64,000 bases of DNA from Polyangiales bacterium (GTDB lineage Bacteria; Myxococcota_A; Polyangia; Polyangiales; Polyangiaceae). The stretch spans positions 300,340 to 364,339 of the forward strand of contig JBBRLQ010000003.1 of assembly GCA_038231275.1 (NCBI GenBank). Direction: 5' to 3'. A model generated the notes under the pieces. It saw nothing but the letters and a program-made list of their open reading frames with translations. It ran no database searches and was not told the DNA's origin. Made by a program: the position numbers and the translations under genes. How positions within the stretch are numbered: the first letter of the stretch is position 1; every line of letters starts with the position of its first letter. Shown one piece after another: positions 17,050 to 60,262 of the stretch.

Positions 17050-17199
17050 CGGAGCCTCCGTCTTCGGTTTCGTCCCGCCGCGGGGCGGCGCCTCGCGGTG
17101 ATCCATTCCTACGGCGCGCGACCGGGGGGCAGGGAGTAACAACTTCGGCGCGATCCGCCGCGGCGGTGCGCTGTTCCCCTGGAAGAACGCGTGCTCTAG

Positions 17200-18429
17200 A
17201 TGGAAGAGATGGACCCCGACCTCGACTCGGCAGCGCGGGCGTTGGCCGTCGCCGATCCGTTGGGGGCGCTGAGGCACGTCGCGCTCCGCGAGGATCCGCC
17301 GGCGCTCGCGATTCGTGGCGTGGCGATGGCGCAGCTCGGAGACTACGCCGTGGCGCGGCGGCTCCTCGCGCGCGCGGGGAAGGCGTTCGCGGTAGGAAAT
17401 CCGGTGGCGCGTGCGCGCTGCATCGCCGCGCAAGCCGAGGTCGCGCTCGCGTCGCGCGATCTGTCGGGCGCGGGTCGGCTGCTCGACGCGGCGGCGCGCG
17501 CGCTCGACGCGACGGGAGACGTCGCGAATGCGGCGTTCGTACGCATCCAAATGGCGCGCCGCCTCGTGCTGCTCGGGCGCTCGCGTGACGCGTCGCGCGT
17601 CCTCTTGGCCCTGGACCTGCGTCGCGCGTCGCCTCATCTCGCCGCGCTGTCCGAGCTGACACGTGCTGCGATCGCGGTGAGGTCTCTTCAGGCGGTGGAC
17701 GCGCGGAGCTCTCTGTCGCGCGCGCTCGGGGCGGCGCGCGCGGCGAAGATTCCCGCGCTCGTCGCCGAGGTCGAGGTCGCGATGCAGAGTCTGGACGTGC
17801 CGGTCGCGCGCGCGGGACGAGACGGCGACGCCCGGCGGCTCGGCCTCGCGGAGGTCGAGGCGATCGTTCGTTCAGGTGCGCTCGTCGTCGACGCGTGCCG
17901 GCGCGAGGTGCGCGCAGGGTCGACCGTCGTGTCGCTCGTGACGCGTCCCGTCCTCTTCGCGATCGCGACGACGCTCGGGGAGGCCGCGCCGGCAGAGGCG
18001 ACACGCGAGGGCCTCTTCCTCGATGCGTTTGGCGCGAAGAGATCGAACGACTCGCTCCGCGCGCGCCTCCGCGTCGAGGTGGGCCGTCTTCGCCTCGCGG
18101 TCGCCGCGATCGCCGAGGTTCGCGCGACGCCGAACGGTTTCGCGTTGTCCCCGCGCCGCGGCGATCGTGTGCACGTCCTCTTGCCTCCCGCGCCCGGCGC
18201 CGCGAGTCCGGTGCTCGCGCTCCTCGGGGCGGGCGAGTCGTGGTCGACCTCTGGCCTCGCCGCCGCGCTCGGGCAGAGCCAACGCACGGTGCAGCGGCTT
18301 CTCGGCGCGCTCGAGGCAGAGGGCAAGGTGCAAGCGGTCGGCGCCGGGCGCAGCCGCCGATGGATCGCTCCGCCGCCCGCCGGATTCGCGACGACGTTGT
18401 TACTCGTCACTCGGGCGCCGCGGGTGTAG
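17200..18429 (+). CDS. hypothetical regulator with C-terminal wHTH
   Basis: 409 aa, Ala/Leu/Arg-rich. TVQRLLGALEAEGKVQAVGAGRSRRW near the C-terminus. Minus-strand ORFs covering this region are Arg/Ser-rich junk. Confidence 0.5.
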   Translation: MEEMDPDLDSAARALAVADPLGALRHVALREDPPALAIRGVAMAQLGDYAVARRLLARAGKAFAVGNPVARARCIAAQAEVALASRDLSGAGRLLDAAARALDATGDVANAAFVRIQMARRLVLLGRSRDASRVLLALDLRRASPHLAALSELTRAAIAVRSLQAVDARSSLSRALGAARAAKIPALVAEVEVAMQSLDVPVARAGRDGDARRLGLAEVEAIVRSGALVVDACRREVRAGSTVVSLVTRPVLFAIATTLGEAAPAEATREGLFLDAFGAKRSNDSLRARLRVEVGRLRLAVAAIAEVRATPNGFALSPRRGDRVHVLLPPAPGAASPVLALLGAGESWSTSGLAAALGQSQRTVQRLLGALEAEGKVQAVGAGRSRRWIAPPPAGFATTLLLVTRAPRV

Positions 18430-19098: not shown

Positions 19099-20034
19099 TC
19101 ACGCGCGCAGGACGAGCGCCTTCGGCACGCACGTGATGGTCGCCGGCAATCCCCCGAGCGGCTCGCCGTCCACGTCGAGGAGGAAGCGATCGGCCACGTC
19201 CGCGTTCTCGAGCCGCAGGACGATTTTGCTGCACCGGAGGTGCGTGGTCGTCTCGTCCTTCAGATGCTCGCCCTTGTAGATCTTGCCTGAGCGGAGCGCG
19301 AAGCCGAGCTTACTCGGCGCGTCCATCGACACGACCTCGAAGATGCCGTCGTCCGGCTTCGCCATCGGTGCGACGTGCATGCCCGAGCCGAAGTACTGCC
19401 CGTTGCAGATCGCGATCATGATCGCCGAGAGCGTCACGTCGCGCGTCTCGCCTTCGTGCGTTACGGTGCACCGCAATCGCCCGCGCGCCGAGTTGACGAG
19501 CGCCTTCAGCGACGCGCCGAAATAGGCTGCTTTTCCCCCGGCGGCGCGCGACGCGGTGGCGACGTACTTGTCGACGAGGCCGCCCATGCCGACGCTCGTA
19601 ATGTTCACGAAGTAGCGCTCGCGCGTCTCGGTCTTCTCGCCTTCGGCGGCGTACGACAAGAGGCCGACGTCGAGGGTGCGCTCCTTCTTGCTCGCGAGGG
19701 CCTCCAGGTATTTGTCGAGGCGGTGCTCGAGGCCCAGCGTCTTGCGAAAGTCGCCGCCGGTGCCTTGGCCGATCATCCCGATGCGCGCGTCCTTCTTCGC
19801 GAGCATGAGGCCGCCTGCCACCTCGTTGAACGTGCCGTCGCCGCCCACCGCGACCACGAGCTCCGCGCCGGCCTCTGCGGCCTCTCTCGCGAGATCGATC
19901 GCGTGACCGCTTCGCTCGGTGTGGAGGATCTCCGCGGCGCCGAGCGCGCGCTCCACCGCCGGCCGCATCTCCTCCCAGACCTTGCCCGTCTTCCCGCCGC
20001 CGGAGCGAGGGTTGACGATCAAGACCGGCTTCAC
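19099..20034 (-). CDS. diacylglycerol/lipid kinase catalytic-domain protein (DagK/YegS family)
   Basis: VKPVLIVNPRSGGGKTGKVWEE...LVVAVGGDGTFNEVAGGL is the DAGK_cat signature. GTG start overlaps the epimerase stop (GTGA). Confidence 0.8.
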   Translation of the reverse strand: MKPVLIVNPRSGGGKTGKVWEEMRPAVERALGAAEILHTERSGHAIDLAREAAEAGAELVVAVGGDGTFNEVAGGLMLAKKDARIGMIGQGTGGDFRKTLGLEHRLDKYLEALASKKERTLDVGLLSYAAEGEKTETRERYFVNITSVGMGGLVDKYVATASRAAGGKAAYFGASLKALVNSARGRLRCTVTHEGETRDVTLSAIMIAICNGQYFGSGMHVAPMAKPDDGIFEVVSMDAPSKLGFALRSGKIYKGEHLKDETTTHLRCSKIVLRLENADVADRFLLDVDGEPLGGLPATITCVPKALVLRA

Positions 20035-21050
20035 GAGACGCTCGCCTCGCTCATCTGCTGCGGCCAGACGACCCCCCGGGCGCGCAAATCCTTCACCGTG
20101 TCGGCGAGGGTCGCGATCGGATCACGCGGCGACCAACCGAGCTCGGTCTCGGCGCGCGACGCGTCGAGGTACCAATAGTACTGGGCCATGTCCAAGCTCG
20201 TCGCGTCGACCGGCATCGGGACGCCCATCCTGTCGGCGGCGAGCGAGAGGTACTTCGCGCCCCACCGCGTCAAGGTTGGGACACGAGGCATGCGCGCCAT
20301 CGGCCCGCGGACGCCGCTCACGCGCCCGAGCCGCGCGAAGAATTCCGCGAGCGTGAGGTTGCAGGCGCCGACGAGGTAGCGTTGCCCCGCCTGCCCGCGC
20401 TCCATGGCGAGGCACATCGCCTCCGCGGCGTCGCGCACGTCGACGTACGACAATCCGCCCGGCGGAATCGCGGGGAGACGCCGCTCGAGGTACAAGCGAA
20501 CGTCCTCTGTCGACGAGCCGCGCTGATCTCCGGGTCCGAGGAGCAACGTCGGATTGACGCTGATCACCTCGAAATCAAGCCCATTTCGCTCGAGCGCAGC
20601 GGTCTCGGCGAAGAGCTTCGAGCGGTAGTAGGGCCATCGCTGGAGGAGGCCGAGCGGGACCTCGTCGTCTTCGCACGCGATGTGATCCGGATCGTCGCTC
20701 ACGGCGACGGTGCCGCTCGACGACGCGATCACGCACCGCTTCACGCCCGATGCCTTGGCGGCGTCGAGCGTCGTCTTCGTCCCCTCGACGTGGAGGCGGT
20801 ACAGCTCCTCGGCGTCCTTGGGGCGACGCGACACGAGGCCTGCGCAATGGAAGAGACCGATGCACCCGTCGGCCGCGGCGCGCACGCTCGCGCCGTCGAG
20901 CACGTCGCCACGCGCGACCGTGACGCCGAGGTCTTCGAGCTCCGGCTCGTCGCTTCTGCACAGTGCAACGATCTCGTGGCCACGTGCCTTCAGCGCGTGG
21001 ACGAGGTGCGTGCCGAGAAATCCCGTGGCGCCGGTGACGAGGTACCGCAT
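20031..21050 (-). CDS. NAD-dependent epimerase/dehydratase (extended SDR, 3-beta-HSD-like)
   Basis: MRYLVTGATGFLGTHLVHAL, and YYRSK (Y-x3-K). Confidence 0.8.
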   Translation of the reverse strand: MRYLVTGATGFLGTHLVHALKARGHEIVALCRSDEPELEDLGVTVARGDVLDGASVRAAADGCIGLFHCAGLVSRRPKDAEELYRLHVEGTKTTLDAAKASGVKRCVIASSSGTVAVSDDPDHIACEDDEVPLGLLQRWPYYRSKLFAETAALERNGLDFEVISVNPTLLLGPGDQRGSSTEDVRLYLERRLPAIPPGGLSYVDVRDAAEAMCLAMERGQAGQRYLVGACNLTLAEFFARLGRVSGVRGPMARMPRVPTLTRWGAKYLSLAADRMGVPMPVDATSLDMAQYYWYLDASRAETELGWSPRDPIATLADTVKDLRARGVVWPQQMSEASVS

Positions 21051-21076
21051 TTTCGCTCCGCTCCGCTTTGCTTCAC

Positions 21077-24000
21077 TCACAGGTTGAACACCTTCTGGAA
21101 TGTCTGGAGCAGCTCTACGTCGTTCGATTTGATCGCGCCGCTCAGGAACTCCGCGGCCCCCGGCGTGTAGGACTCGCGGACGATCTTCGTGAAGATCTCC
21201 GCGCTCGTCTTGAGCACGCAGTCGGCGGTGCCGCCGTCGGGCTTGCCGGCCTTGATTTCGCACGTCTCGGCGGACACCTTCACAGTCCACTTCGCCTGCG
21301 CGTCCTGACCGAGGGTGAAGTAGTACGACACCGGGCGATCGACGGCCTTCGGCATGAACTTGGTGCCGAGCTCGTTGAAGAGCGTGACGAGCGGGTGAAT
21401 TACTACCTCCTCCGGCACGTCCCCGCGCGGCGTCATGCGCGCGAGATCGAAGATGCGCCCTTCGCGCAGCGCGACGACGGCGAGACGCGCGAGCTTCGCG
21501 GCTTCCCGCGCGGCGTCGGCAGGCGTCATGCCCTCGGTCATTCGGCGCATGTCTTGAACGCACAGGGGCGGTCCGATGCGCGCCGTGATGTCGCGCTTGC
21601 GCGGCAAGAGCACCGAGCCCTTGGGCAATGCGTCGCGCGTGCCCGAGAGGTACACGGGCAGGATGTCGACCCCGTAGTGCATTGCGAGGTGGCCGACGAG
21701 CGGCTTGAACTCCTGCACCTCGCCGTCGGAGCTGCGGGTCCCCTCCGGGAAGATGAGCATCGTGCGGCCCTCTTCGAGAACCTGCGCGGCCTGGCGCTCG
21801 GCCTGACGGAGCGTGCCCTTGCGATCGAGCGCGCGCAGGTTCGTGAAATTCTCGAAGAACGCCTTTCGCAGCCCGTTGCCCTCGAAGAAGTAGTCCTGCG
21901 CCGCGAGCGACACGATGTCCTCGCCGTAGGTGCCGAGGGCGTGGCGCACGAAGCCCATGTCGAGGTGCGACGCGTGGTTCGAGACGACGATCGTGTTGCG
22001 GTTGTGCGGGATGAACGCGCGGCCGTAGACCTTCGAGGTCATCACGCCGCCGTAGAACGCGTCCTGCGCCTTGCCGATGAGGCGCTTTCCGAGGTCTTTC
22101 ACCTCGGGCGGCAGCTCGGAGACGAGCTCGAAGCCGCGCTTCTTCTCGTCCTTGTCGCGCCCTTCGATCGTCTTGGTGCGGCTGGGGACGATCGATTTTC
22201 GGCCCTGCACGAGCGCCTCGACCTCGTGCACCGTGAGGCACGCCTGGAGGCCGGACGGCTCCACCGCGCCGTATTTTGCCTCGAGCGCGACGAGCAGCTC
22301 CGTCATCGTGAGCGAGTCGAAGGCGAGATCGCCGAGGAGCGTCATCCCGCTCGAGATGTCCGCCACGTCCTTGCCGCGCACCGCCGCGATCGCGCGCTTC
22401 ACGCCGCTCACGTGCGCGTCGTCGTCTTGGGGGCGCGCCGAGCCTGCGATCGTGCGAAGGAGGATCTGGCGGACCTCCTTGCGCTTCACCTTGCGCGTCG
22501 TCGTGCGCGGGAGCACCGCATCGACGAAATGGACGACTGCCGGCTGCTGCCCGTACGGGAGCTTTCCGAACGCGTCGCGCAGCGATTTACTCGCGCGATC
22601 GAGGCGCGCGGCGCGATCGATCGTGTCGTCCTTCGTCGGCACCGCGAGGCACGCGATGCGCTCGCCGCCGCTCGGCGCGTCGACGCCGACCAGCGCGAGC
22701 TCGTCGATGTGCGGGACCTTGCCGACCCTCGCCTCGAGGTCGTCGGGGTAGATGTTCTCGCCGCTCGCGGTGACGATGACGTCCTTCGAGCGCCCCACGA
22801 TGATGAGCCGGCCTTGGCGATCGAGCTTGCCGAGATCTCCGGTCTTGAGCCAGCCGTCGGCGGTCATGACCTCGGCGGTCGCGGCGTCGTCGGTGTAGCC
22901 GGCCATCACGTTGGGGCCCTGCGCGAGCACCTCGCCGACGCCGCTCTCGTCCGGCTCGTGGATCTTGATCTTCACGCCGGGGACCGGCTTGCCGACCTGT
23001 CCGGCCGGCGATTTCGGCGAAGGTTTGGTGACAGTCAGCACCGGCGCCGCCTCGGTGAGGCCGTAGCCCTCGGTGAGGTGGAGGCCGAGCCCTGCGAAAA
23101 GCTTCTGCGTGTCCTTCGGAAGCGCCGCACCACCGCTGATCAGGTACTTGATGTTGCCGCCGAGGCCCTCGTGAACGGCGCCGAAGAGGATCTTGCCGGC
23201 GTCGAGGCCGAGGTTCTTGCCGATGAGGCGATTGAGCTCGGCGGCCCAATGGAAGATCGTCTCGACCGCCGGCCCCTTCTCTTTCACCTGCGCGACGATG
23301 CGCCGCTCGAGGAGCTGCCACAGCGCAGGCACGCCGACCATCGCGGTGATTCGCCCGGCCTTCAGCCCTGCGGTCACGCGCTCGCCGTTCAGCTCGTCGA
23401 CGTACACGATGCGCGCGCCGCGCGAGAACGGGAGGAGGAGGCCGCACGTGAACTCGAACGTGTGGTGCAGCGGCAGGACGCTGAGGACGCGATCCCCGCC
23501 ATTTAGCGGAAAAATAGGGGCGAGCGACGCGATCAGTGAGACGAAGTTGCCGTGCGTGAGCCGAACGCCCTTTGGCGTTCCAGTGGTGCCGCTCGTGTAG
23601 ATGAGGCTCGCGACGTCGCCCGGGAGGACGTCGACGTCGGGCGCCGCGAGCGTCGCATCCTCTTCCGTAAACGCGTGCAGATTCTCCTCATCGAGGACGA
23701 CCTTCGCGCCGCTCTCGCGCAGAACGTTCGCGCGTGCCGCGTCGTCCATCGCCGAGTCGATCGGCACGGCGACGGCGCCGGCGCGCATGATTCCGAAGTA
23801 CGCGATGGCCCAGTCAGGATGGTTCGGCGCGCAGATGGCGACGCGATCACCCTTGGTGACGCCGGCGCTCGCGAGGCGAGAGGCAACCGCGTTGCTGCGA
23901 TGGAGGACGTCGCGGTACGTGACGCGCGAGAGGCCGTCCTTTTCCATCCGCTGCAGCGCGAGCCCGAGATCGTGCCGCTCGGCCATCTCGGCGACGAGCG

Positions 24001-25717
24001 TGACCAACGTCTCGTGCGCCTTGTGCGCCTGCATCTCCTTCGCGATCTTCTTCTCGAGGACCGGCAGGACGCGCTTCTCCATCCCGGGGAGGTTCACCTC
24101 GTGCATCCAGTGCGCCCAGTCGATCGTCTCGGGCTGCCACGGGAGCTTCGCTTTGTCCTCGTCCGAGAGGCGCGCGTACGCGGCGCGCACGTTGGCGCTC
24201 GAGAACGGGCCTTTGCTCATCGACATGAACGGCGCGAACAGGCGCAAAATGTCGGCGATCTTGTCTTCCTGGTACGCGATGCCTTCGAGGGCCTTGGCCA
24301 TCGGCCGGAGCGCCGGCGCCGTCTTCATCACGCTCGCCAGCGCGCGGCTCGCCTTCGAGATCGCGGGGCTGCTCGTCTGCTCGAACGTCTCGCGCGAAAC
24401 GAACACCGGCTCGATGTGGCCCTGCACGAAGTTCCAGAGCGGGTTGCCCTTGCCCTTCCTCTGGAAGTGCTTTCGCTTGTAGAGGCCGATGAGCTCGCCG
24501 AGGCGGACCGCGGTGGCGGGGTTCGTGTCGCTGACGCCGAACTGGTAGACCGGCTTCTGCGAGCCCTCGAGCAGCTCGGCGAGCGCGATGAGCATTCCCG
24601 CGCAGACCATGTCGGTCGGGATGAAATCCAGGACGGTGTGCGCCGCCGGGATGACCATCTGCCCCTTCATGATGAGGAACGTGATCGGCGCGCTCGTGCC
24701 GATGCCCTCGTTCCAGCCCGGGAACGGGAACGCGATGCACGTCTCGCAGCACGCGGGCCGCACGATCGTGAACGGAAGACCGCTCCGCGTGACGACCTGC
24801 TCGCCGATGCTCTTCGTGTACGTGTAGATGTTCGGCCAGCCCCAGTGCGTCGCGCGGTCCTTGCCGCTCTCGACGAGCTGCGCCTCGACCCACTTGCGCG
24901 TCACGCGATCGAGCTCGGCCTCGAACGGCGCGCCATGCTGGGGCTCGCCGCGCTTCTCGAGGCTCGCCTTGGCGGTCTCGGTGAACTCGGAGACGCGAAA
25001 CGCGTCCTCCGCGCGGTGCTTGGCCTGCGCGATGAGCTCGAGGCACTCGGCGATCTCGCGGTTCGGGTCCCACGCGTCCACCGGCAGCTCGTCGAAGCGC
25101 GGGAAGGGGCGCTCGAACGGATCGACCTCCGGCACGAAGCCGTCGCGATCGCCGCACACGTAGCACGTGCTCGTGTGCATGAGCGGCGCGCCGCCGAGCT
25201 CCTTGCAGAGTGCAACCAAATTTTGCGCGCCGAAGGCGTTTGCCTCGATCGACTCGTCGAGCGGCGGGTTGAAGTCGACGACGCCCGCGACGTTCACGAC
25301 CGCGTCGATGGTGCCGCGCAGCTCGGCGATGACTTCAGCTTTGATCCCGCAGTTGGGGAGACCCATGTCGCCGTCGATGGGGACGATCTTCTCGCGGAGG
25401 AACGCCTCGAAGCCGTCGCCGTAGCGATCGCGCAGCGGCTGGAGCGCCTCGCTCGTGGCGACCTGCGCCCAGAACCGCTCGTCGCTCGACTGCACGGCGT
25501 TCGAGCGCACGAGCATGTAGAGCTTCCCGAGCGTCGGGTAGCGGTCGAGGAGCATGCACCAGAAGACCTTGCCGAGGAACCCGGTGCCGCCGAGGATCAC
25601 GAGGCGCGCGCCGCCGTACATCGCGCTCGGATCGAGCTCGGGCGTGGTCGTGCCGCTCCCGTACGCGCCGTTCGCGCCGTTGGCGACGCCGTTGACGCCG
25701 TTTTCGTGACCGCTCAT
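21077..25717 (-). CDS. multifunctional lipid-biosynthesis enzyme (ElbD-like): fatty acyl-CoA reductase, acyl-AMP ligase, ACP, 1-acylglycerol-3-phosphate acyltransferase and SCP2 domains
   Basis: N-terminal LVILGGTGFLGK...YTYTKSIGE (FAR NAD-binding). LIYTSGTTGTPKGV, GYGLTEAAPV and GWLKTGDLG (AMP-binding). LGDLAFDSLTMTELL (phosphopantetheine Ser). VSNHASHLDMGF plus IFPEGTRS (PlsC HX4D / EGTR). C-terminal SCP2-like ...CVLKTSAEIFTKIV...FLSGAIKSNDVELLQTFQKVF. Confidence 0.85.
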   Translation of the reverse strand: MSGHENGVNGVANGANGAYGSGTTTPELDPSAMYGGARLVILGGTGFLGKVFWCMLLDRYPTLGKLYMLVRSNAVQSSDERFWAQVATSEALQPLRDRYGDGFEAFLREKIVPIDGDMGLPNCGIKAEVIAELRGTIDAVVNVAGVVDFNPPLDESIEANAFGAQNLVALCKELGGAPLMHTSTCYVCGDRDGFVPEVDPFERPFPRFDELPVDAWDPNREIAECLELIAQAKHRAEDAFRVSEFTETAKASLEKRGEPQHGAPFEAELDRVTRKWVEAQLVESGKDRATHWGWPNIYTYTKSIGEQVVTRSGLPFTIVRPACCETCIAFPFPGWNEGIGTSAPITFLIMKGQMVIPAAHTVLDFIPTDMVCAGMLIALAELLEGSQKPVYQFGVSDTNPATAVRLGELIGLYKRKHFQRKGKGNPLWNFVQGHIEPVFVSRETFEQTSSPAISKASRALASVMKTAPALRPMAKALEGIAYQEDKIADILRLFAPFMSMSKGPFSSANVRAAYARLSDEDKAKLPWQPETIDWAHWMHEVNLPGMEKRVLPVLEKKIAKEMQAHKAHETLVTLVAEMAERHDLGLALQRMEKDGLSRVTYRDVLHRSNAVASRLASAGVTKGDRVAICAPNHPDWAIAYFGIMRAGAVAVPIDSAMDDAARANVLRESGAKVVLDEENLHAFTEEDATLAAPDVDVLPGDVASLIYTSGTTGTPKGVRLTHGNFVSLIASLAPIFPLNGGDRVLSVLPLHHTFEFTCGLLLPFSRGARIVYVDELNGERVTAGLKAGRITAMVGVPALWQLLERRIVAQVKEKGPAVETIFHWAAELNRLIGKNLGLDAGKILFGAVHEGLGGNIKYLISGGAALPKDTQKLFAGLGLHLTEGYGLTEAAPVLTVTKPSPKSPAGQVGKPVPGVKIKIHEPDESGVGEVLAQGPNVMAGYTDDAATAEVMTADGWLKTGDLGKLDRQGRLIIVGRSKDVIVTASGENIYPDDLEARVGKVPHIDELALVGVDAPSGGERIACLAVPTKDDTIDRAARLDRASKSLRDAFGKLPYGQQPAVVHFVDAVLPRTTTRKVKRKEVRQILLRTIAGSARPQDDDAHVSGVKRAIAAVRGKDVADISSGMTLLGDLAFDSLTMTELLVALEAKYGAVEPSGLQACLTVHEVEALVQGRKSIVPSRTKTIEGRDKDEKKRGFELVSELPPEVKDLGKRLIGKAQDAFYGGVMTSKVYGRAFIPHNRNTIVVSNHASHLDMGFVRHALGTYGEDIVSLAAQDYFFEGNGLRKAFFENFTNLRALDRKGTLRQAERQAAQVLEEGRTMLIFPEGTRSSDGEVQEFKPLVGHLAMHYGVDILPVYLSGTRDALPKGSVLLPRKRDITARIGPPLCVQDMRRMTEGMTPADAAREAAKLARLAVVALREGRIFDLARMTPRGDVPEEVVIHPLVTLFNELGTKFMPKAVDRPVSYYFTLGQDAQAKWTVKVSAETCEIKAGKPDGGTADCVLKTSAEIFTKIVRESYTPGAAEFLSGAIKSNDVELLQTFQKVFNL

Positions 25718-25724
25718 CGTCCCC

Positions 25725-27305
25725 TCACACCGTCACGTCCGCCATGACGATGGGCGGCATGTGCATCATCGTGATCTCGGGGCTCGGGCCGTGGTGGCTC
25801 TGCGCCATCTCGAGCGCCTCCGGCATCGAGCGCGCGGTCTGGTAGCCGAGGAGCTTGGGGATGTACTCGTTGTCGGCGCCGACGACGATGACGCGCCCGA
25901 GGTGCTGCCGACCGGCCTCGCCCCAGTACCACATGAAGAACGGGTGAGCCGGGTGGTACGCGTGGCCCGAGCGGTACTTCTGGATGAGCGCGGGGTTCGA
26001 CGCGAACTTCTTCTCGAAGCGCTTGTGCAGCTCGAGCCCGTCACGCGTCTCCGGGAGGAGGTTGTGGACGAACTCGATGTACGGAGCGTGGTGCTCCTTG
26101 TCGAACTGATCGGTGCACGGGTGCGTGACGATCATCGTGCCGCCCTTTTTGACGAGCGGCGCGTTCCTGTACATGTTGAAGAGGTACCCCTCGGCCATCA
26201 CGCTCACGAGGAGCGGATTGAGGAACGAGTTCACGTTGTACGGGCTGATGAACGGGATGCCGGTGACGAGCACGTCGGCCTGGCCGCGAATGGGCACCGA
26301 GTACTGCTCGTAGCACTTGGCGAGCGTGTGCGGATGGACCGCCTCCGTCTCGCCCGCGAAGACGCCGGTGATGCCGTACGGGCTCGGGACCTTCTGGAAG
26401 ATCGCCTGACGCGCGGGCTGCGGGAGCTTGTCGAGCGTGAAGCGAAGCGCGCGGAGGGCGGTGCGCTCGCTGCCCGAGAGATCGTCCTCGTTCTTGTGCA
26501 AGAACTCGAGCGGCCGATCGAACATGCGGTTGTTCACCGTGGTCTCGATCGTGAACACGTTGAGCGTCTTGTTGGCGAGCCGCCCCATCCGCTCGACGCT
26601 GGTCGCGAGCGCGGAGCTCGACGGGTCCATGTACGAGTGGCAGTTGCGCATCGTCTGCGGCGTGTGGTGCGCCTGGAGCGAGCGGTACCCGCACAGGCCG
26701 ACCGCGACGGACTTGTGACCGCCGTCCATCGGCACGAGGTTGAGGTTCACGTAGATGAGGAGATCCGACTCGACCGCCTTGCGATTGAGCTCGACGACCT
26801 CGCCCATTTCGGTCGTGCCGAGCTCCTTCATCCCCTTCGCGTCTTCCGCGTCGTGGTTGTAGAGGCGGTGCGGGTAGTACTTGGAGTGGATGCGATCGCC
26901 GACGATGTGGCGGATCTCTTCCGACGTCATGCGACGGTGCACGCTCGTCGCGATGATCATCTCGACGTCCTCGACGCCGTGATCGGCCAGCATTTCGAGG
27001 ACGATCGTGAGCACGCGCTCGCGCACGTCGGGGCGGCGCATCGGCGGGAGCGGGAGCGAGATGTCGTCGATGGCGATGACGACCTTCATCCCGGGGCGGA
27101 GCTTCGCGTGGAGCGGGTCCGAGCCGTGAGGGTGGTTTAGCGCGTAGCGAATCGCCGCATCGGGATCCTTCAGCGCGGCGAGCGGCGCGCGCGGGTAGAT
27201 GACGCGCGTGCCGGCCGGCATGTCGACCTCCACCAGCCTGTCGCCGGCGAAGATGGTGCGCGGCGCGCTCTTGCGGTCGAGGGTGACGACGAGGGGGTGG
27301 GTCAT
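25725..27305 (-). CDS. LarA-like (lactate racemase / DUF2088 family) protein
   Basis: MTHPLVVTLDRKS... 526 aa with LarA-type layout. 7-nt gap to the ElbD-like start. Its ATG overlaps the HAD stop (ATGA). Confidence 0.6.
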   Translation of the reverse strand: MTHPLVVTLDRKSAPRTIFAGDRLVEVDMPAGTRVIYPRAPLAALKDPDAAIRYALNHPHGSDPLHAKLRPGMKVVIAIDDISLPLPPMRRPDVRERVLTIVLEMLADHGVEDVEMIIATSVHRRMTSEEIRHIVGDRIHSKYYPHRLYNHDAEDAKGMKELGTTEMGEVVELNRKAVESDLLIYVNLNLVPMDGGHKSVAVGLCGYRSLQAHHTPQTMRNCHSYMDPSSSALATSVERMGRLANKTLNVFTIETTVNNRMFDRPLEFLHKNEDDLSGSERTALRALRFTLDKLPQPARQAIFQKVPSPYGITGVFAGETEAVHPHTLAKCYEQYSVPIRGQADVLVTGIPFISPYNVNSFLNPLLVSVMAEGYLFNMYRNAPLVKKGGTMIVTHPCTDQFDKEHHAPYIEFVHNLLPETRDGLELHKRFEKKFASNPALIQKYRSGHAYHPAHPFFMWYWGEAGRQHLGRVIVVGADNEYIPKLLGYQTARSMPEALEMAQSHHGPSPEITMMHMPPIVMADVTV

Positions 27306-28015
27306 GACAACAGCTCCCGAACGGTTCCAGTGAGGCCCCTCTTCGGGCGCGATTCCTTCTCGAGGCGGACGATCGGCCATCCGTACGCGTTCGCGAGGCG
27401 CTCGAGCTTCGCGTCGGGGTTCACGGCGGCGGGGTGGCCGACGACCGAGAGCATCGGCACGTCGGAGTAGCTGTCGGAGTACGCGAAGCAGTCGTCGAGA
27501 TCGTGGCCCTTCAACTTGGCGTGATCGCGGATGAGGCGCGCCTTCTCGGGACCGGCGACGACGGGACGCAGCAGCCGCCCGGTCGCGTAGTGGTCCTTGA
27601 TCTCGAGGCGGTTCGCGATGACCGTATGCGCGCCGAGGAATGCGGCGAGGCGGCCCATCAAGAAATCGAGCGCGCCCGACACGAGGACCACCTCGTGGCC
27701 TTGGTCCACGCACGTCTGCACGAGATCGCGCGCGTGGGGGAAGAGCGCGCGCTTGATGACGGCGTCGAACGTCTCGTCGGCGAGGCAGTGGAGCCGATCC
27801 TCGCTCATCCCTTCGTACGCGCTGAACAGCATCTCGTTGAAGAGGCGTCGATCGCGCATCTCGGCGAGCACCAGCTGCGGCGCCCTCACGGCTGTGCGCG
27901 CGAGCTTGCCGAGGCTGCGAAGCGGATTCTGTTGATTCAGAAGATAGAAAATCGTCGGATGGAGCAAGTTCGTCGTGAGGAGGGTGCCGTCCACGTCGAA
28001 GTAACTTGCTGCCAT
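27302..28015 (-). CDS. HAD-superfamily hydrolase (subfamily IB / PSPase-like)
   Basis: MAASYFDVDGTLL (DxDGT motif I), then CFAYSDSYSDVPML and GHPAAVNPD (motifs III/IV). Confidence 0.8.
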   Translation of the reverse strand: MAASYFDVDGTLLTTNLLHPTIFYLLNQQNPLRSLGKLARTAVRAPQLVLAEMRDRRLFNEMLFSAYEGMSEDRLHCLADETFDAVIKRALFPHARDLVQTCVDQGHEVVLVSGALDFLMGRLAAFLGAHTVIANRLEIKDHYATGRLLRPVVAGPEKARLIRDHAKLKGHDLDDCFAYSDSYSDVPMLSVVGHPAAVNPDAKLERLANAYGWPIVRLEKESRPKRGLTGTVRELLS

Positions 28016-28039
28016 GATGGGGCGTGGGGTTTCGCGCGC

Positions 28040-28110
28040 CGACAGGCCTTTGTCAATGCGTCGGGTGTTACGCGGGAAAATGAGGGGTCCCCGGGTCGTC
28101 CCCGGTCCGT
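28040..28110 (-). terminator. candidate intrinsic terminator after lipoprotein gene 28125..29273
   Basis: On the minus-strand transcript, GC-rich imperfect hairpin (ccggggacgacccgggg) followed by TCATTTTCC. A T-run is rare in this 70% GC sequence. Confidence 0.25.
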
Positions 28111-28124
28111 CTCTGACCCCGACC

Positions 28125-29273
28125 TCAGCCCCCGCACTTGCCCAAATGCGCGCCAATTTGGAGTGGCGCGAGGTCGACCGAGTGGCCGTTCGCGAGGAAA
28201 GGGATGTGCGGCTTGATTTCGATCTGCGCGATGTCTTTCGGCGCGACTCCGTTCGCGAACAGGAACACCGGGGCCGTGAAGGCCGTAAGCGTGTAGCTCA
28301 TTCCGTTGCCGGAGAGGTTCTGGCTGCCCGCCGGATACGTGAAGACCCAGTGCGCGTCGTTCTGCTGGCCGTGCATGTTGCCGACCCGGTACATGTCGAT
28401 GTTGCCGTCTTTTGCGCCAAAAAACGGGTTCTTCGCCCCCATCGCCGTGAGAGACGGGTACGTCTTTCCGCCGATCTTCACGTCCTTGTCGAAGTTGTCG
28501 ATCGTGCCGCTGAGATCGTACGTGTCGGCGTCCTTCAAGACCTTGCCGCCGGTGTAATCGGAGAGCGCGGGGTGCTTGCCGATGCCGTCGAAGGTGACGT
28601 GGATCGCGACGCGCTTGGTCTCGTCGAAGTTCTTGGTGAGGGGCCCGCCGCCGGTCGGCGTGGCGAGGCGCTCGGAGACCGTTCCGTCCCAAGTCCCGAG
28701 CAAACGGCTGTCGATCGCGCAGCCGTCGAGCTCGACGACCGGGCGCGCGGTCTTGATGTGAATCGCGGTAGCCGCGCCATGCGGCGAGTCCACCGCACCG
28801 CCGAGAGTGCCGGTGAACTGATAAATCGTGAGCGCCATGCGGTTGGTCGGCGCGTGCATCGTCTTCGGGAGCTTCTTCGCGCCGTCGGCGTAGGCGATGG
28901 GCGCGTTGGCGCTGTCGACCGGGAGGTAGAGCTTTCCATCGCGGTCCCAAAGCACGAACGCGCCGGAAAAATCCGTGGGAACAGAGGCGCCGGCGTAGAG
29001 CGAGATCGTTCCGCTGCTCGTCTTGTCGGCCGGAAGACGCACCGCTGGGGCCGCGTCGAAGGGCTGCGCGCAGGCGAGGATTGTGTCGCCGGCGCCGTTC
29101 TTCGTGACGGTCCCGGTCTGGCAGGCCTTGGCTTCCTCGGCCGAGGGGGGCGTGCTCGCGGTGACGTCGCTGTCGTCGCCGGCTGCCGAATCGCCGCTCC
29201 CGGAGCCGCACGCGGTGGCGGCGAACGCGAGGAGAGAGAGAAGGGGAAGGATGGACGCGCGCACGGAGATCAC
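28125..29273 (-). CDS. hypothetical lipoprotein
   Basis: VISVRASILPLLSLLAFAATACGSGSG lipobox signal. 383 aa secreted protein. Confidence 0.65.
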   Translation of the reverse strand: MISVRASILPLLSLLAFAATACGSGSGDSAAGDDSDVTASTPPSAEEAKACQTGTVTKNGAGDTILACAQPFDAAPAVRLPADKTSSGTISLYAGASVPTDFSGAFVLWDRDGKLYLPVDSANAPIAYADGAKKLPKTMHAPTNRMALTIYQFTGTLGGAVDSPHGAATAIHIKTARPVVELDGCAIDSRLLGTWDGTVSERLATPTGGGPLTKNFDETKRVAIHVTFDGIGKHPALSDYTGGKVLKDADTYDLSGTIDNFDKDVKIGGKTYPSLTAMGAKNPFFGAKDGNIDMYRVGNMHGQQNDAHWVFTYPAGSQNLSGNGMSYTLTAFTAPVFLFANGVAPKDIAQIEIKPHIPFLANGHSVDLAPLQIGAHLGKCGG

Positions 29274-29440
29274 CTCGTGTCTCCGTGGTGCAACGGAGAT
29301 GCCAGGTAACCTACATGTAATCTCAAGTAGGTACCGTCGCATTTCGAGGAAAGTGAATCGCTGAGGATCCAGCTTCGGCGTCCATGCCCGCACCGCGCCG
29401 GCTTACCGGCTAGGGCTTCACGCCCGCGCGGGCTCGTTCA

Positions 29441-33607: not shown

Positions 33608-33674
33608 CGAGGGGCCACATTTGTGCCACGAGGTCGGGGGGTACGCCAAGGGCGACGTGCATGCCCTCGCCACG

Positions 33675-39463: not shown

Positions 39464-39524
39464 ACCTGGGCGCAGACCTGGCCGTCGCCGCGAAAAAGGG
39501 TGATACCGTCGGTTTTGCCGCCGC

Positions 39525-43665: not shown

Positions 43666-43670
43666 GGCCG

Positions 43671-52565: not shown

Positions 52566-52612
52566 CGACGGACTTATAGCAGGCCGACGATCGCGCCGCG
52601 CCGCGCGCTCCG

Positions 52613-55852: not shown

Positions 55853-55897
55853 TCCAATTTCCCGGTAGTCGCAACCATTCCGCGTCATCATGACGCG

Positions 55898-58159: not shown

Positions 58160-58177
58160 TACCCGTGATCATCGTTC

Positions 58178-60227: not shown

Positions 60228-60262
60228 CCGAGAAATCTGGGCTGTGCGTCGCCGGGCGGTGT

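What the first reader, a model, noticed from the sequence alone, without database searches (positions are those of the whole stretch)
19099..28015. Five-gene lipid operon around a 1546-aa FAR / acyl-AMP ligase / ACP / AGPAT / SCP2 megasynthase with a LarA-like partner
The ElbD-like multidomain enzyme matches the architecture reported for myxobacterial ether-lipid (alkylglycerol/plasmalogen-type) biosynthesis. Here it additionally carries a C-terminal SCP2 sterol-carrier-like domain. It is translationally coupled in the order HAD phosphatase (ATGA), LarA-like protein (7-nt gap), megasynthase, 3-beta-HSD-like epimerase (GTGA), lipid kinase. A LarA (lactate-racemase-fold, nickel-pincer-cofactor) homologue inside a lipid operon is unusual, and no larB/C/E lie in the window. 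It could act on a 2-hydroxy/glycerol stereocentre of the lipid headgroup, or be a cofactor-independent relative.
Basis: partly seen in the sequence, partly recalled or inferred. Interest (0 to 1): 0.65.

Follow-up and report, generated by a model that had tools for sequence, protein, structure and literature searches.

The report
Myxobacterial elbBCDE ether-lipid operon
This is a Polyangiales myxobacterium's copy of the already described elbB-elbE ether-lipid gene cluster; the "odd" lactate-racemase-like gene is its regular member ElbC, whose function has never been studied and whose nickel-pincer-type active site suggests a testable way these bacteria could make ether bonds.

Summary
Five co-directional, tightly packed minus-strand genes lie at 19099-28015: HAD phosphatase, LarA homologue, a 1546-aa FAR/acyl-AMP ligase/ACP/AGPAT/SCP2 enzyme, an extended SDR and a YegS-type lipid kinase.

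It is not a new system. The first four genes are orthologues of Myxococcus xanthus elbB, elbC, elbD and elbE (43, 53, 41 and 42% identity, same order). That is the published ether-lipid operon (MIBiG BGC0000871).

The LarA-like gene is ElbC (MXAN_1529). Ether-lipid papers call it "unknown function". A 2020 supplement lists it as LarA-homologue "Group 15, unknown function".

ElbC keeps the nickel-pincer-cofactor residues (Asp81, His123, Lys198, His214). It lacks the second catalytic histidine and the carboxylate-binding Arg and Lys. It is therefore unlikely to be a 2-hydroxyacid racemase.

Its relatives sit next to FAR, HAD and AGPAT genes in Actinobacteria too.

Differences from M. xanthus: no elbA, an SCP2 domain fused to ElbD (seen in 22 Polyangiales loci), and a fifth kinase gene (6 of 17 informative loci).

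No larB, larC or larE lies in the window; the rest of the genome could not be checked.

I propose that ElbC transiently oxidises the glycerol backbone. This is inference only.

The parts
27302..28015 (-). elbB orthologue: HAD-IB phosphatase, 237 aa, first gene of the conserved unit
   Evidence: Pfam HAD E 2e-36. TIGR01490 scores 135.4 bits against a cut-off of 98.3. DVDGT motif at residues 7-11. 43% identical to M. xanthus ElbB. Lies directly upstream of the LarA homologue in 68 of 77 informative loci.
25725..27305 (-). elbC orthologue: LarA-superfamily protein, 526 aa (LarAH Group 15; NCBIfam LarAH14/15/16 family). Its start overlaps the elbB stop (ATGA).
   Evidence: NF052592 scores 828.5 bits against a cut-off of 740. 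53% identical to MXAN_1529/ElbC over 519 aa. AlphaFold2 model has pLDDT 89.5. Best structural match is 9q3k, E 3.6e-35, TM 0.77/0.84. Asp81, His123, Lys198 and His214 are invariant in 40 homologues.
21077..25717 (-). elbD orthologue: 1546-aa multidomain enzyme, 7 nt after the elbC stop
   Evidence: 41% identity to M. xanthus ElbD over 1466 aa, 1033 bits. Pfam architecture. Catalytic motifs.
24065..25600 (-). ElbD residues about 40-551: fatty acyl reductase (FAR) domain
   Evidence: NAD_binding_4 E 7e-45 and a weak Sterile hit. PDB 7eoz, fatty acyl-CoA reductase, E 5.5e-42. GGTGFLG and YTYTK motifs.
22490..23935 (-). ElbD residues about 595-1076: acyl-AMP/acyl-ACP ligase (ANL) domain
   Evidence: AMP-binding E 1.7e-78 and AMP-binding_C. 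TSGTTGTPKG, GYGLTE and GDLGKLDRQGRLIIVGRSKD motifs.
22211..22402 (-). ElbD residues 1106-1169: acyl carrier domain
   Evidence: PP-binding scores 22.9 bits against a cut-off of 20.8. DSL serine motif at 1134-1136.
21647..22033 (-). ElbD residues 1229-1357: AGPAT/GNPAT-type acyltransferase domain
   Evidence: Acyltransferase E 1.4e-19. HASHLD and FPEGTR motifs.
21080..21397 (-). ElbD residues 1441-1546: C-terminal SCP2-like lipid-binding domain, absent from M. xanthus ElbD
   Evidence: The alignment to M. xanthus ElbD stops at residue 1435. The domain is conserved in 22 Polyangiales ElbD homologues. Pfam SCP2 scores 23.1 bits for the isolated domain, and 21 of 22 homologues hit it. The profile hits 1IKT at E 8.9e-6.
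20031..21050 (-). elbE orthologue: extended SDR (NAD-dependent epimerase/3-beta-HSD type), 339 aa, 26 nt after the elbD stop
   Evidence: Epimerase E 4.1e-31 and 3Beta_HSD E 4e-19. 42% identical to M. xanthus ElbE but only 30% to ElbA. Directly follows ElbD in 19 of 20 informative loci.
19099..20034 (-). YegS/BmrU-family soluble lipid (diacylglycerol-type) kinase, 311 aa. Its GTG start overlaps the elbE stop (GTGA). Last gene of the unit; not present in the M. xanthus operon.
   Evidence: DAGK_cat E 1.2e-29 and YegS_C E 1.1e-27. TIGR00147 scores 131.7 bits against a cut-off of 118.65. GGDGT motif. Follows ElbE in 6 of 17 informative loci. Absent downstream of elbE in M. xanthus. The next gene, ending at 19092, is convergent.
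28016..28124 (-). 109-nt intergenic region upstream of elbB: probable promoter region (unverified). TTGACA at 28056-28051.
   Evidence: Sequence read. The consensus scan found no full sigma-70-like site. The upstream gene (28125-29393) has no orthologue in any of the 80 related loci, so the conserved unit starts here.

Best explanation
The region is the elbB-elbC-elbD-elbE ether-lipid operon of a Polyangiales (Labilithrix-like) myxobacterium. It is extended by a lipid kinase gene and carries an SCP2 domain on ElbD.

Steps taken from work on M. xanthus and from the domain content:
- The ElbD ligase domain activates a fatty acid and loads it on the ElbD carrier domain. Both activities were shown in vitro for M. 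xanthus ElbD.
- The FAR domain reduces the carrier-bound acyl group to a fatty aldehyde or alcohol. An i15:0 aldehyde is present in the wild type and absent in elbD mutants.
- The AGPAT domain acylates a glycerol-phosphate backbone. The product is a 1-O-alkyl-2-acyl glycerophospholipid.

Inferred here (about 0.3 probability for the specific chemistry):
- ElbC is a LarA-fold enzyme that carries the lysine-tethered nickel-pincer nucleotide cofactor but has only one catalytic histidine and no carboxylate-binding residues.
- ElbC uses the cofactor as a bound hydride store. It transiently oxidises the C2 hydroxyl of the glycerol(-phosphate) backbone to a ketone.
- The ketone activates C1 for ether formation with the FAR product. 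The hydride is then returned, either to the same carbon or to the hemiacetal/oxocarbenium carbon. Overall this is a redox-neutral, AGPS-independent etherification.
- ElbE (SDR) would reduce any alkyl-dihydroxyacetone-phosphate that is released.
- ElbB (HAD) and the kinase would interconvert the phosphorylated and free alkyl(acyl)glycerols.
- The SCP2 domain would hold the hydrophobic intermediate or hand the product to the membrane.
For: Operon identity:
- Window proteins are 43, 53, 41 and 42% identical to M. xanthus ElbB, ElbC, ElbD and ElbE, in the same order. The M. xanthus locus was fetched and compared.
- The locus-tag mapping elbA-E = MXAN_1531 to MXAN_1527 comes from PMC13012113.
- The genetics and biochemistry of ElbD are summarised in PMC9131029.
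- Co-transcription is likely: ATGA and GTGA overlaps, gaps of 7 and 26 nt, and no terminator-like site in the intergenic gaps.

ElbC as a LarA-type, probably cofactor-bearing enzyme:
- The NCBIfam 'NPN-dependent hydroxyacid isomerase, LarAH14/15/16' model scores 828.5 bits for the window protein and 848.8 bits for ElbC.
- All 19 significant structural matches of the model are LarA-family proteins.
- Asp81, His123, Lys198 and His214 are invariant in 40 sequences that are 52-95% identical to the window protein.
- ElbC is the most conserved gene of the cluster.

Not a hydroxyacid racemase:
- The His174 equivalent is missing (Val or a gap). The Arg75 equivalent is Leu84 (alignment).
- Dataset S2 of PMC7583248 lists Group 15 with a gap at H174, L or V at R75, a gap at Q295 and N at K298.
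- The related Frankia LarAH14 was inactive on seven hydroxyacid substrates.

Link to glycerolipid and fatty-alcohol chemistry beyond the myxobacteria:
- Table S1 of PMC7583248 associates Groups 14, 15 and 16 with AGPAT, HAD, thioester reductase, acyl-CoA synthetase and SDR COGs.
- I confirmed this in two loci that encode relatives of Frankia LarAH14. L083 has a FAR-HAD fusion, a Zn-ADH, a LarA homologue 45% identical to the window protein, and an AGPAT. L084 has FAR, a LarA homologue, an AGPAT and an SDR.

The pathway needs an unknown ether-forming step. The ElbD route works without AGPS, and its steps up to the alkyl ether lipid are described as unknown (PMC9131029).
Against: - There are no lipid or expression data for this organism, and ElbD is only 41% identical to the characterised protein.
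- ElbC has never been mutated or assayed.
- In M. xanthus, an elbB insertion (expected to be polar on elbC) was partly rescued by elbD alone. This argues that ElbB and ElbC are not strictly essential.
- Some sponge-symbiont elb-like clusters contain only elbD and elbB homologues (bioRxiv 10.64898/2026.06.23.733905).
- In Sorangium, Polyangium and Minicystis, elbD is not within 10 kb of elbB-elbC.
- The cofactor genes larB, larC and larE are not in the window, and I could not check the rest of the genome.
- About half of the 50%-identity cluster representatives of the wider family have lost the Asp-His-Lys-His set. Family membership alone therefore does not guarantee catalysis.
- The hydrogen-borrowing chemistry has no precedent in the LarA family.
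Confidence: 0.8

Rival explanations
1. ElbC is a true epimerase or racemase of the glycerol C2 stereocentre. It would interconvert sn-1 and sn-3 forms of an alkyl- or acyl-glycerol(-phosphate), or set the configuration of the backbone used for ether lipids.
For: LarA enzymes invert secondary-alcohol stereocentres through a bound hydride (PMC7583248 and PMC11770544). The gene context is glycerolipid. The carboxylate-binding residues are lost, which fits a non-acid substrate.
Against: Inversion by the accepted mechanism needs two catalytic histidines on opposite faces. The His174 equivalent is absent here and in all of Groups 14 and 15. Single-histidine relatives are thought to be unidirectional at best or to perform other chemistry (PMC12611868; PMC13524815). 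No paper I read reports a need for backbone inversion in this pathway.
Confidence: 0.15
2. ElbC is catalytically silent or independent of the cofactor. It would be a scaffold or lipid-binding partner of ElbB and ElbD that merely retains the LarA fold.
For: No larB, larC or larE lies in the window. Frankia LarAH14 showed no activity. Many members of the wider family have lost the Asp-His-Lys-His set (Group 16). An elbB insertion mutant was partly rescued by elbD alone.
Against: The cofactor-tethering Lys198, the nickel ligand His214, the ribose-binding Asp81 and the catalytic His123 are invariant in 40 myxobacterial sequences that have otherwise diverged to 52% identity. The protein is more conserved than the enzymes around it. 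Its nearest solved relative, LarA_Sp, was obtained with bound cofactor (PMC12611868).
Confidence: 0.15
3. ElbC acts on a soluble 2-hydroxyacid or sugar-acid unrelated to lipids, and its position in the operon reflects only co-regulation. NCBIfam labels the family a 'hydroxyacid isomerase'.
For: The NCBIfam name. All characterised LarA homologues act on 2-hydroxyacids. The nearest solved relatives are suspected carbohydrate enzymes.
Against: Both carboxylate-binding residues (the Arg75 and Lys298 equivalents) are replaced. The association with FAR, HAD and AGPAT genes is kept in two phyla, with different gene fusions. No sugar or organic-acid gene lies in the conserved unit, and the flanking genes are not conserved.
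Confidence: 0.08
4. In this lineage the cluster makes something other than membrane ether lipids. Candidates are free fatty alcohols, wax esters or neutral alkylglycerols for storage. The SCP2 domain and the kinase would then mark a diverged function.
For: FAR domains also serve wax and alcohol synthesis. The SCP2 fusion and the kinase are absent from the characterised M. xanthus operon. The review states that CarF, the vinyl-ether desaturase, is restricted to Cystobacterineae, so plasmalogens are unlikely here.
Against: The whole FAR/ligase/ACP/AGPAT core, ElbB, ElbC and ElbE are orthologous and collinear with M. xanthus. AGPAT, HAD and a lipid kinase all point to glycerolipid products. [quoted passage not shown]
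Confidence: 0.1

Closest known systems
Myxococcus xanthus elbABCDE operon (MXAN_1531 to MXAN_1527; MIBiG BGC0000871; Lorenzen et al. 2014, as reviewed in PMC9131029)
   Same: The order HAD, LarA homologue, ElbD, SDR is the same, all co-directional and tightly spaced. Identities are 43, 53, 41 and 42%. ElbD has the same FAR/ligase/ACP/AGPAT core.
   Different: There is no elbA here; elbA is dispensable in M. xanthus. ElbD carries an extra C-terminal SCP2 domain of about 106 aa. A YegS-type lipid kinase is translationally coupled after elbE, whereas M. xanthus has a divergent gene there.
LarA-homologue Groups 14, 15 and 16 of Desguin et al. 2020 (PMC7583248), equal to NCBIfam NF052592
   Same: The window protein passes the family cut-off. 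It shares the group's signature: Asp72, His108, Lys184 and His200 equivalents are present, while His174, Arg75, Gln295 and Lys298 equivalents are absent. MXAN_1529 and a Sorangium cellulosum protein are listed in Group 15.
   Different: None in kind; it is simply another member. The group's function is listed as unknown, and the only member tested (Frankia LarAH14) was inactive. Note that the 'LarAH15' of PMC11770544 is a Phytophthora gluconate epimerase. Its catalytic pocket is described as gluconate-epimerase-like, so it does not appear to correspond to Group 15.
Single-histidine LarA-like enzymes LarA_Sp and LarA_Bw (PDB 9Q2U/9Q3K and 9Q3J; PMC12611868)
   Same: They are the nearest solved structures (sequence E 5e-32; Foldseek E 3.6e-35, TM 0.77/0.84). 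They are long-form LarA proteins of about 500 aa with one catalytic histidine. They retain the cofactor lysine and aspartate, and their substrate is unknown.
   Different: Identity is only about 20%. They have Asn at the His174 position, whereas this family has Val or a gap. They have Lys where this family has Leu84. Their gene context is glycolysis and sugar metabolism, not lipid.
AGPS/GNPAT/FAR aerobic ether-lipid pathway (mammals; M. xanthus MXAN_1676 to MXAN_1674)
   Same: The end product class is the same (1-O-alkyl glycerolipids), and it also uses FAR and a GNPAT/AGPAT-type acyltransferase.
   Different: No AGPS-type flavoenzyme turned up in the Pfam scans of about 50 ORFs across the window. 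The ElbD route works without AGPS in M. xanthus. A LarA-type protein has no counterpart in the AGPS pathway.
elb-like gene clusters of sponge symbionts and Acidobacteriota (bioRxiv 10.64898/2026.06.23.733905)
   Same: They contain ElbD and ElbB homologues with neighbouring phospholipid genes, including diacylglycerol kinases.
   Different: Several of those cluster families keep only elbD and elbB, and some have elbD split into two ORFs. The paper does not mention an SCP2 domain or a LarA-type gene.
Clusters around relatives of Frankia LarAH14 (L083 from GCA_030447445.1; L084)
   Same: A LarA homologue 45% identical to the window protein is co-directional with homologues of the ElbD FAR domain, ElbB and the ElbD AGPAT domain.
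   Different: There is no ligase or ACP module. FAR is fused to HAD instead of to the AGPAT. A Zn-dependent alcohol dehydrogenase takes the place of, or accompanies, the SDR.

Membership tests
elb ether-lipid biosynthesis operon (M. xanthus elbA-E) | ElbD orthologue with FAR, acyl-AMP ligase, ACP and AGPAT in one polypeptide | tested here: met
   41% identity over 1466 aa, 1033 bits, to M. xanthus ElbD. Pfam architecture. Catalytic motifs.
elb ether-lipid biosynthesis operon (M. xanthus elbA-E) | Collinear elbB (HAD), elbC, elbD and elbE (SDR) on one strand | tested here: met
   Same order, with overlaps or gaps of 26 nt or less. Each protein's best match in the M. xanthus locus is its positional counterpart.
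elb ether-lipid biosynthesis operon (M. xanthus elbA-E) | elbA (a second SDR) upstream of elbB | tested here: not met
   The upstream gene (28125-29393) is a Pfam-less putative lipoprotein. elbA is reported to be dispensable for ether lipids, so this does not exclude membership.
elb ether-lipid biosynthesis operon (M. xanthus elbA-E) | The cluster is required for alkyl or alkenyl ether lipid production | not testable with these tools
   Needs deletion mutants and lipidomics in the source organism.
LarA superfamily, LarAH14/15/16 family (NCBIfam NF052592) | Score above the curated family cut-off | tested here: met
   828.5 bits against a cut-off of 740. M. xanthus ElbC scores 848.8 bits.
LarA superfamily, LarAH14/15/16 family (NCBIfam NF052592) | LarA two-domain fold | tested here: met
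   AlphaFold2 pLDDT 89.5, pTM 0.90. All 19 Foldseek hits with E of 0.001 or lower are LarA-family structures.
Nickel-pincer-nucleotide (NPN) dependent LarA enzymes | Cofactor-binding and catalytic residues: equivalents of Asp72, His108, Lys184 (thioamide tether) and His200 (nickel ligand) | tested here: met
   Asp81, His123, Lys198 and His214 are present and invariant in 40 homologues. Dataset S2 of PMC7583248 gives D, H, K and H for Group 15.
Nickel-pincer-nucleotide (NPN) dependent LarA enzymes | Second catalytic histidine (His174 equivalent), needed for racemisation or epimerisation | tested here: not met
   Val or a gap at that position in the alignment to LarA_Sp and Mar2. A gap in Dataset S2 for Groups 14 and 15. 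Also stated in PMC12611868.
Nickel-pincer-nucleotide (NPN) dependent LarA enzymes | Residues that bind the 2-hydroxyacid carboxylate (Arg75, Lys298, Gln295 equivalents) | tested here: not met
   Leu84 aligns with Arg75. Group 15 has L or V, N and a gap at these three positions.
Nickel-pincer-nucleotide (NPN) dependent LarA enzymes | Cofactor biosynthesis genes larB, larC and larE present in the genome | tested here: inconclusive
   None among about 50 ORFs covering the 64-kb window. They are not listed among the COGs associated with Group 15 within three genes on either side.
Nickel-pincer-nucleotide (NPN) dependent LarA enzymes | Bound nickel-pincer cofactor and isomerase activity | not testable with these tools
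   Needs purified protein. The only tested relative, Frankia LarAH14, was inactive on seven hydroxyacids.
SCP2 sterol/lipid carrier domain (Pfam PF02036) | Score above the Pfam gathering cut-off and similarity to solved SCP2 domains | tested here: met
   The isolated domain scores 23.1 bits against a cut-off of 21.3, and 21 of 22 orthologous domains hit the family. The profile hits the MFE-2 SCP2-like domain 1IKT at E 8.9e-6. In the full-length scan the score is only 17.7 bits. The single-sequence structure model was too poor to use (pLDDT 46.6).
YegS/Rv2252/BmrU lipid kinase family (TIGR00147) | Score above the cut-off, DAGK catalytic domain with the GGDGT motif | tested here: met
   131.7 bits against a cut-off of 118.65. 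DAGK_cat and YegS_C domains. GGDGT at residues 64-68.
AGPS-dependent ether-lipid pathway | Alkylglycerone-phosphate synthase (FAD-linked oxidase) encoded in or near the cluster | tested here: not met
   No such family appeared in the Pfam scans of about 50 ORFs across the window.

The most novel reading that the evidence does not exclude
ElbC is a nickel-pincer-cofactor enzyme that catalyses the long-sought AGPS-independent ether-bond-forming step. It borrows a hydride from C2 of the glycerol(-phosphate) backbone, couples the resulting ketone or enol to the fatty aldehyde or alcohol made by the ElbD FAR domain, and then returns the hydride. If so, it would be the first LarA-family enzyme shown to act on a lipid or other non-hydroxyacid substrate, and the first nickel-dependent step in membrane-lipid biosynthesis. 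It would be shared by Myxococcota and Actinobacteria.
Probability: 0.2. Interest if true: 0.85.

Novelty: new member of a known kind. Interest (0 to 1): 0.45.

Why it matters
The locus itself is an orthologue of a published operon, so it adds little on its own. The value is in a connection that neither field seems to have made.

I found no paper containing both "lactate racemase" and "ether lipid". Ether-lipid papers call ElbC a protein of unknown function. The LarA literature lists it as an unassigned group and records its lipid-gene neighbours only in a supplementary table.

How the ElbD route makes the alkyl ether bond without AGPS is an acknowledged open question. ElbC looks cofactor-competent, has one catalytic histidine, lacks carboxylate binding, and is linked to FAR, HAD and AGPAT genes in two phyla. 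That makes it a concrete candidate for the missing step, and the idea is directly testable.

The SCP2 fusion and the coupled kinase may also help to work out the order of intermediates.

Tried and rejected
- **Source look-up.** The exact-sequence look-up of the window's LarA homologue found nothing. The organism is known only as Polyangiales, Labilithrix-like, from 85-87% identity to metagenome-assembled genomes and 95% to P0001.
- **Genome-wide larB/larC/larE.** I could not test this. Desguin et al. 2014 is not held. The JBC 2024 supplement gives LarA-homologue prevalence only (15 of 17 Myxococcota genomes).
- **A possible LarE next to elbB-elbC in Sorangium and Polyangium.** The PAPS-reductase-family gene directly upstream was considered as a LarE-like sulfur insertase. 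I rejected this because it passes the CysH equivalog model (156.2 bits against a cut-off of 154).
- **Promoter and terminator scan of 18.8-29.7 kb.** It found no sigma-70-like site and only weak terminator-like hits inside coding sequence. It is uninformative for a 69% G+C myxobacterium.
- **Structure of the SCP2 domain.** The single-sequence model had pLDDT 46.6 and I did not use it for fold search.
- **RNA features.** Rfam gave no hit. ARAGORN reported one 94-nt 'tRNA-Ala' inside an ORF, probably false.
- **Flanking genes.** The lipoprotein, MFS transporter, DnaJ-TPR protein, PlsC, beta-propeller protein and DUF899 protein were tested as possible operon members. None has an orthologue in the 80 related loci.

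Full report
**1. What is in the sequence**

The window has about 69% G+C. Five genes lie on the minus strand between 19099 and 28015:
- HAD phosphatase, 27302-28015, 237 aa.
- LarA-like protein, 25725-27305, 526 aa.
- Multidomain enzyme, 21077-25717, 1546 aa.
- Extended SDR, 20031-21050, 339 aa.
- Lipid kinase, 19099-20034, 311 aa, GTG start.

The junctions are tight:
- HAD and LarA-like gene: ATGA overlap.
- LarA-like gene and megasynthase: 7-nt gap.
- Megasynthase and SDR: 26-nt gap.
- SDR and kinase: GTGA overlap.

The next gene downstream is convergent and ends at 19092. A 109-nt spacer precedes the HAD gene. The terminator-like hits on the minus strand lie inside coding sequence, not in the gaps between genes.

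Only the SCP2 call was marginal, at 17.7 bits against a cut-off of 21.3 in the full-length protein.

**2. It is the elb operon**

The review PMC9131029 describes the M. xanthus ether-lipid operon elbA-E:
- elbA: SDR, dispensable.
- elbB: HAD phosphohydrolase.
- elbC: unknown function.
- elbD: FAR / acyl-CoA synthetase / ACP / AGPAT.
- elbE: SDR.

PMC13012113 maps these genes to MXAN_1531 through MXAN_1527. I recovered MXAN_1529 from the protein database (P0121) and fetched its locus (L081).

BLASTP of the window proteins against that locus gave these matches:
- HAD to ElbB: 43%.
- LarA-like to ElbC: 53% over 519 aa.
- Megasynthase to ElbD: 41% over 1466 aa, 1033 bits.
- SDR to ElbE: 42%, against only 30% to ElbA.

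Order and orientation are identical. That test fails: the similarity runs end to end.

**3. The 'unusual' LarA partner is ElbC**

Dataset S2 of Desguin et al. 2020 (PMC7583248) lists MXAN_1529, and also a Sorangium cellulosum protein, as LarA-homologue 'Group 15, unknown function'. Both the window protein and ElbC pass the NCBIfam model 'NPN-dependent hydroxyacid isomerase, LarAH14/15/16 family', with 828.5 and 848.8 bits against a cut-off of 740.

The gene is a hallmark of the cluster, not a local oddity:
- It has more than 476 relatives in the species-level genome collection. The best 80 are all Polyangiales or unclassified myxobacterial and deltaproteobacterial MAGs.
- It is the most conserved gene of the unit, at 70-87% identity. 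ElbD is at 49-66%, and HAD, ElbE and the kinase range from 46 to 77%.
- HAD lies directly upstream in 68 of 77 informative loci.
- ElbD lies directly downstream in 17 of 59 loci that have at least 5 kb of downstream sequence, and further downstream in 9 more. It is not within 10 kb in Sorangium, Polyangium or Minicystis. [quoted passage not shown]
- COG3875 (LarA homologues) occurs in 15 of 17 Myxococcota genomes (PMC11770544).

**4. What kind of LarA protein it is**

An AlphaFold2 model built on 40 homologues is confident (pLDDT 89.5, pTM 0.90). All 19 significant Foldseek hits are LarA-family structures. The best are the recently solved 'single catalytic histidine' enzymes 9Q3K and 9Q3J (E 3.6e-35, TM 0.77/0.84). 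They are also the best sequence hits in the PDB (E 5e-32).

I mapped residues through the HMMER alignments, using the numbering in PMC12611868.

Retained:
- The ribose-binding Asp (Asp81).
- The catalytic His (His123, in SVHRR).
- The cofactor-tethering Lys (Lys198, in GGHK).
- The nickel-ligand His (His214).

These four are invariant in 40 myxobacterial sequences spanning 52-95% identity.

Missing:
- The second catalytic His (LarA His174), replaced by Val or a gap.
- The Arg that binds the cofactor phosphate and the substrate carboxylate (LarA Arg75), replaced by Leu84.

Dataset S2 gives the same pattern for Group 15 and adds a gap at Gln295 and Asn at Lys298. PMC12611868 states that Groups 14 and 15 lack the His174 equivalent.

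The protein therefore looks competent to bind the cofactor. It does not look like a two-base racemase, nor like a binder of a 2-hydroxyacid carboxylate. Frankia LarAH14, the only member of these groups ever assayed, was inactive on seven hydroxyacid reactions.

In the wider family there are 344 cluster representatives at E of 1e-30 or lower. Only 30 of 70 full-length sequences (68 representatives plus the window protein and M. xanthus ElbC) keep the Asp-His-Lys-His set. Both the window protein and ElbC are among those that do.

**5. Family-wide gene context**

Table S1 of PMC7583248 associates these COGs with the three groups:
- Group 14: AGPAT (COG0204, 88%), HAD (COG0560, 88%), COG1063 (88%) and thioester reductase (50%).
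- Group 15: SDR (COG0451, 150%), HAD (100%) and long-chain acyl-CoA synthetase (75%).
- Group 16: AGPAT and HAD (100% each).

I checked this independently. Relatives of Frankia LarAH14 led to two loci:
- L083 (GCA_030447445.1) has a co-directional run: a FAR-HAD fusion protein, a Zn-dependent alcohol dehydrogenase, a LarA homologue 45% identical to the window protein over its full length, and an AGPAT.
- L084 has FAR, a LarA homologue, an AGPAT and an SDR.

The same four activities therefore travel together in two phyla: FAR, HAD, LarA homologue and AGPAT. They are fused differently in each. FAR is joined to the AGPAT (with ligase and ACP) in ElbD, and to HAD in the LarAH14-type cluster. That is good comparative evidence that the LarA homologue works in the same fatty-alcohol/glycerolipid pathway.

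**6. What differs from M. xanthus**

- *No elbA.* The upstream gene is a Pfam-less putative lipoprotein that is not conserved in related loci.
- *An SCP2 domain on ElbD.* The alignment to M. xanthus ElbD ends at residue 1435. The remaining roughly 110 residues are conserved in 22 Polyangiales ElbD homologues, with the motif ADCVLKTS...F..IVRE.YTP...F.SG..KSN. The isolated domain passes the Pfam SCP2 cut-off, 21 of 22 homologues hit SCP2, and the profile hits the SCP2-like domain of human MFE-2 (1IKT, E 8.9e-6).
- *A fifth gene.* A YegS/BmrU-type lipid kinase is translationally coupled to elbE. It follows elbE in 6 of 17 informative loci and is absent from M. xanthus. Diacylglycerol kinases next to elb-like clusters have been noted in sponge symbionts.

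None of the genes flanking the five has an orthologue in the 80 related loci. The conserved unit is therefore 19099-28015.

**7. Cofactor genes**

Pfam scans of about 50 ORFs covering nearly the whole window found no larB (AIR-carboxylase-like), larC (DUF111) or larE. The rest of the genome could not be examined, for the reasons given under 'tried and rejected'. The invariance of the tethering lysine and the nickel histidine is indirect evidence that the cofactor is available.

**8. How it most likely works**

Established for M. xanthus:
- ElbD is required for alkyl and vinyl ether lipids, independently of AGPS.
- Its ligase and ACP activities were shown in vitro.
- An i15:0 aldehyde depends on elbD.
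- The steps up to the alkyl ether lipid are unknown.
- CarF makes the vinyl ether afterwards, and CarF is restricted to Cystobacterineae. This Polyangiales organism would therefore be expected to make alkyl ethers rather than plasmalogens.

Inferred:
- ElbC supplies a 'hidden redox' step on the C2 hydroxyl of the glycerol backbone.
- With one catalytic base and a tethered hydride acceptor, it could oxidise C2 transiently.
- That would activate C1 for exchange or condensation with the FAR product. The hydride would then be returned without inversion. Overall this is a redox-neutral substitute for the AGPS reaction.
- ElbE, ElbB, the kinase and the SCP2 domain fit around this as ketoreductase, phosphatase, re-phosphorylating enzyme and lipid chaperone.

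I give the specific chemistry about 0.2-0.3. I give the broader claim, that ElbC is a catalytically active, cofactor-dependent enzyme of this lipid pathway, about 0.5.

Counter-evidence:
- An elbB insertion, presumably polar on elbC, was partly rescued by elbD alone.
- Some elb-like clusters contain no elbC.
- elbD is unlinked to elbB-elbC in many Polyangiales.
- No activity has ever been shown for this LarA group.

**9. Known or new**

The operon, its gene order and the role of ElbD are published. The LarA affiliation of MXAN_1529 and its lipid-type neighbours are on record, but only in supplementary tables. The locus is therefore a new member of a known kind, with lineage-specific additions (the SCP2 fusion and the kinase).

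What I did not find anywhere in the searchable library is the connection between the two literatures. No paper contains both 'lactate racemase' and 'ether lipid'. ElbC appears with ElbD in only one paper, as 'unknown function'. The only paper with 'nickel-pincer' and 'Myxococc' is a taxonomic count. That connection, not this particular locus, is the interesting product of the analysis. It applies equally to M. xanthus, where it can be tested.

**10. Caveats**

- The source organism is not identified. The best matches are P0001 (95%) and a Polyangiales metagenome-assembled genome (87%).
- Residue equivalences rest on sequence alignments and a published table, not on a superposition I could inspect.
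- The library search covers open-access papers only. The original Lorenzen et al. 2014 paper was not read directly.
- 'LarAH15' in PMC11770544 is a Phytophthora gluconate epimerase. Its catalytic pocket is described as gluconate-epimerase-like, so it does not appear to correspond to 'Group 15' of the 2020 paper.

Noticed in passing
window 32786-33685 (-): A separate PlsC-type 1-acylglycerol-3-phosphate acyltransferase lies about 5 kb upstream of the operon (Pfam Acyltransferase E 5.4e-29; TIGR00530 98.5 bits, just under its cut-off). It has no orthologue near the cluster in the 80 related loci. Its only weak matches there are to the ElbD AGPAT domain.
   Followed up: partly
L083 4443-10515 (GCA_030447445.1); L084 5165-12261: Loci encoding relatives of Frankia LarAH14 carry a FAR-HAD fusion protein (781 aa), a Zn-dependent alcohol dehydrogenase, the LarA homologue and an AGPAT in one co-directional run. 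The fusion pattern ties the HAD phosphatase to the fatty-acyl reductase. The gene caller split the LarA homologue into two ORFs in both loci, although tblastn gives one continuous 531-aa alignment in L083.
   Followed up: partly
70 aligned full-length sequences (P0241-P0390 subset plus the window protein and M. xanthus ElbC): Only 30 of the 70 aligned long-form LarA homologues keep the Asp-His-Lys-His cofactor and catalytic set. The rest carry varied substitutions, as in Frankia Group 16. This suggests repeated decay into non-catalytic paralogues.
   Followed up: partly
L027 8267-9133 (Sorangium cellulosum So ce56); L043 8322-9104 (Polyangium fumosum): Where elbD is unlinked, a PAPS-reductase-family gene sits directly upstream of, and co-directional with, elbB-elbC. 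It passes the CysH equivalog model, so it is probably ordinary sulfate assimilation rather than a LarE-like sulfur insertase.
   Followed up: yes
window 39504-42305 (+) and 60146-62857 (+): An SrfB-family 'virulence factor' (E 1.5e-113) and a PF10139 'putative bacterial virulence factor' (E 4.1e-82) are both present but lie about 18 kb apart. The genes between them are unrelated: signalling, potassium transport and a porin.
   Followed up: no
window 43296-45752 (+): A Ser/Thr protein kinase is fused to a C-terminal FGE-sulfatase (formylglycine-generating-enzyme-like) domain.
   Followed up: no
window 49845-52655 (-), 57449-58168 (-), 57849-60227 (+), 55853-57154 (+): A full-length KdpD-type sensor kinase has no kdpABC genes in the window. 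Nearby are an OmpR-type response regulator, a Kup potassium transporter and a Na+/H+ exchanger. The stop-to-stop ORFs of the regulator and Kup overlap, so the Kup start must lie further downstream than the ORF start.
   Followed up: no
window 4442-8077 (-): A LigD-type non-homologous end-joining enzyme (phosphoesterase, ATP-dependent ligase and primase-polymerase domains) occupies the C-terminal two-thirds of a 1211-aa ORF. My GC3 filter did not pick up this ORF, and its N-terminal roughly 500 residues have no Pfam match.
   Followed up: no
window 47635-47728 (-): ARAGORN reports a 94-nt tRNA-Ala(GGC) inside an ORF. Rfam finds no tRNA there at the gathering threshold. It is probably a false positive.
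   Followed up: partly
window 28125-29393 (-): The gene just upstream of the operon encodes a 422-aa protein with a lipoprotein-like signal (LLAFAATAC) and no Pfam or NCBIfam match. It has no orthologue in the 80 related loci.
   Followed up: partly
window 16351-17871 (-) versus 17200-18429 (+): Two long ORFs with coding-like GC3 overlap on opposite strands. Only the C-terminal half of the minus-strand ORF (DUF899, E 2.3e-88) has a family match, so the true gene boundaries here are unclear.
   Followed up: no
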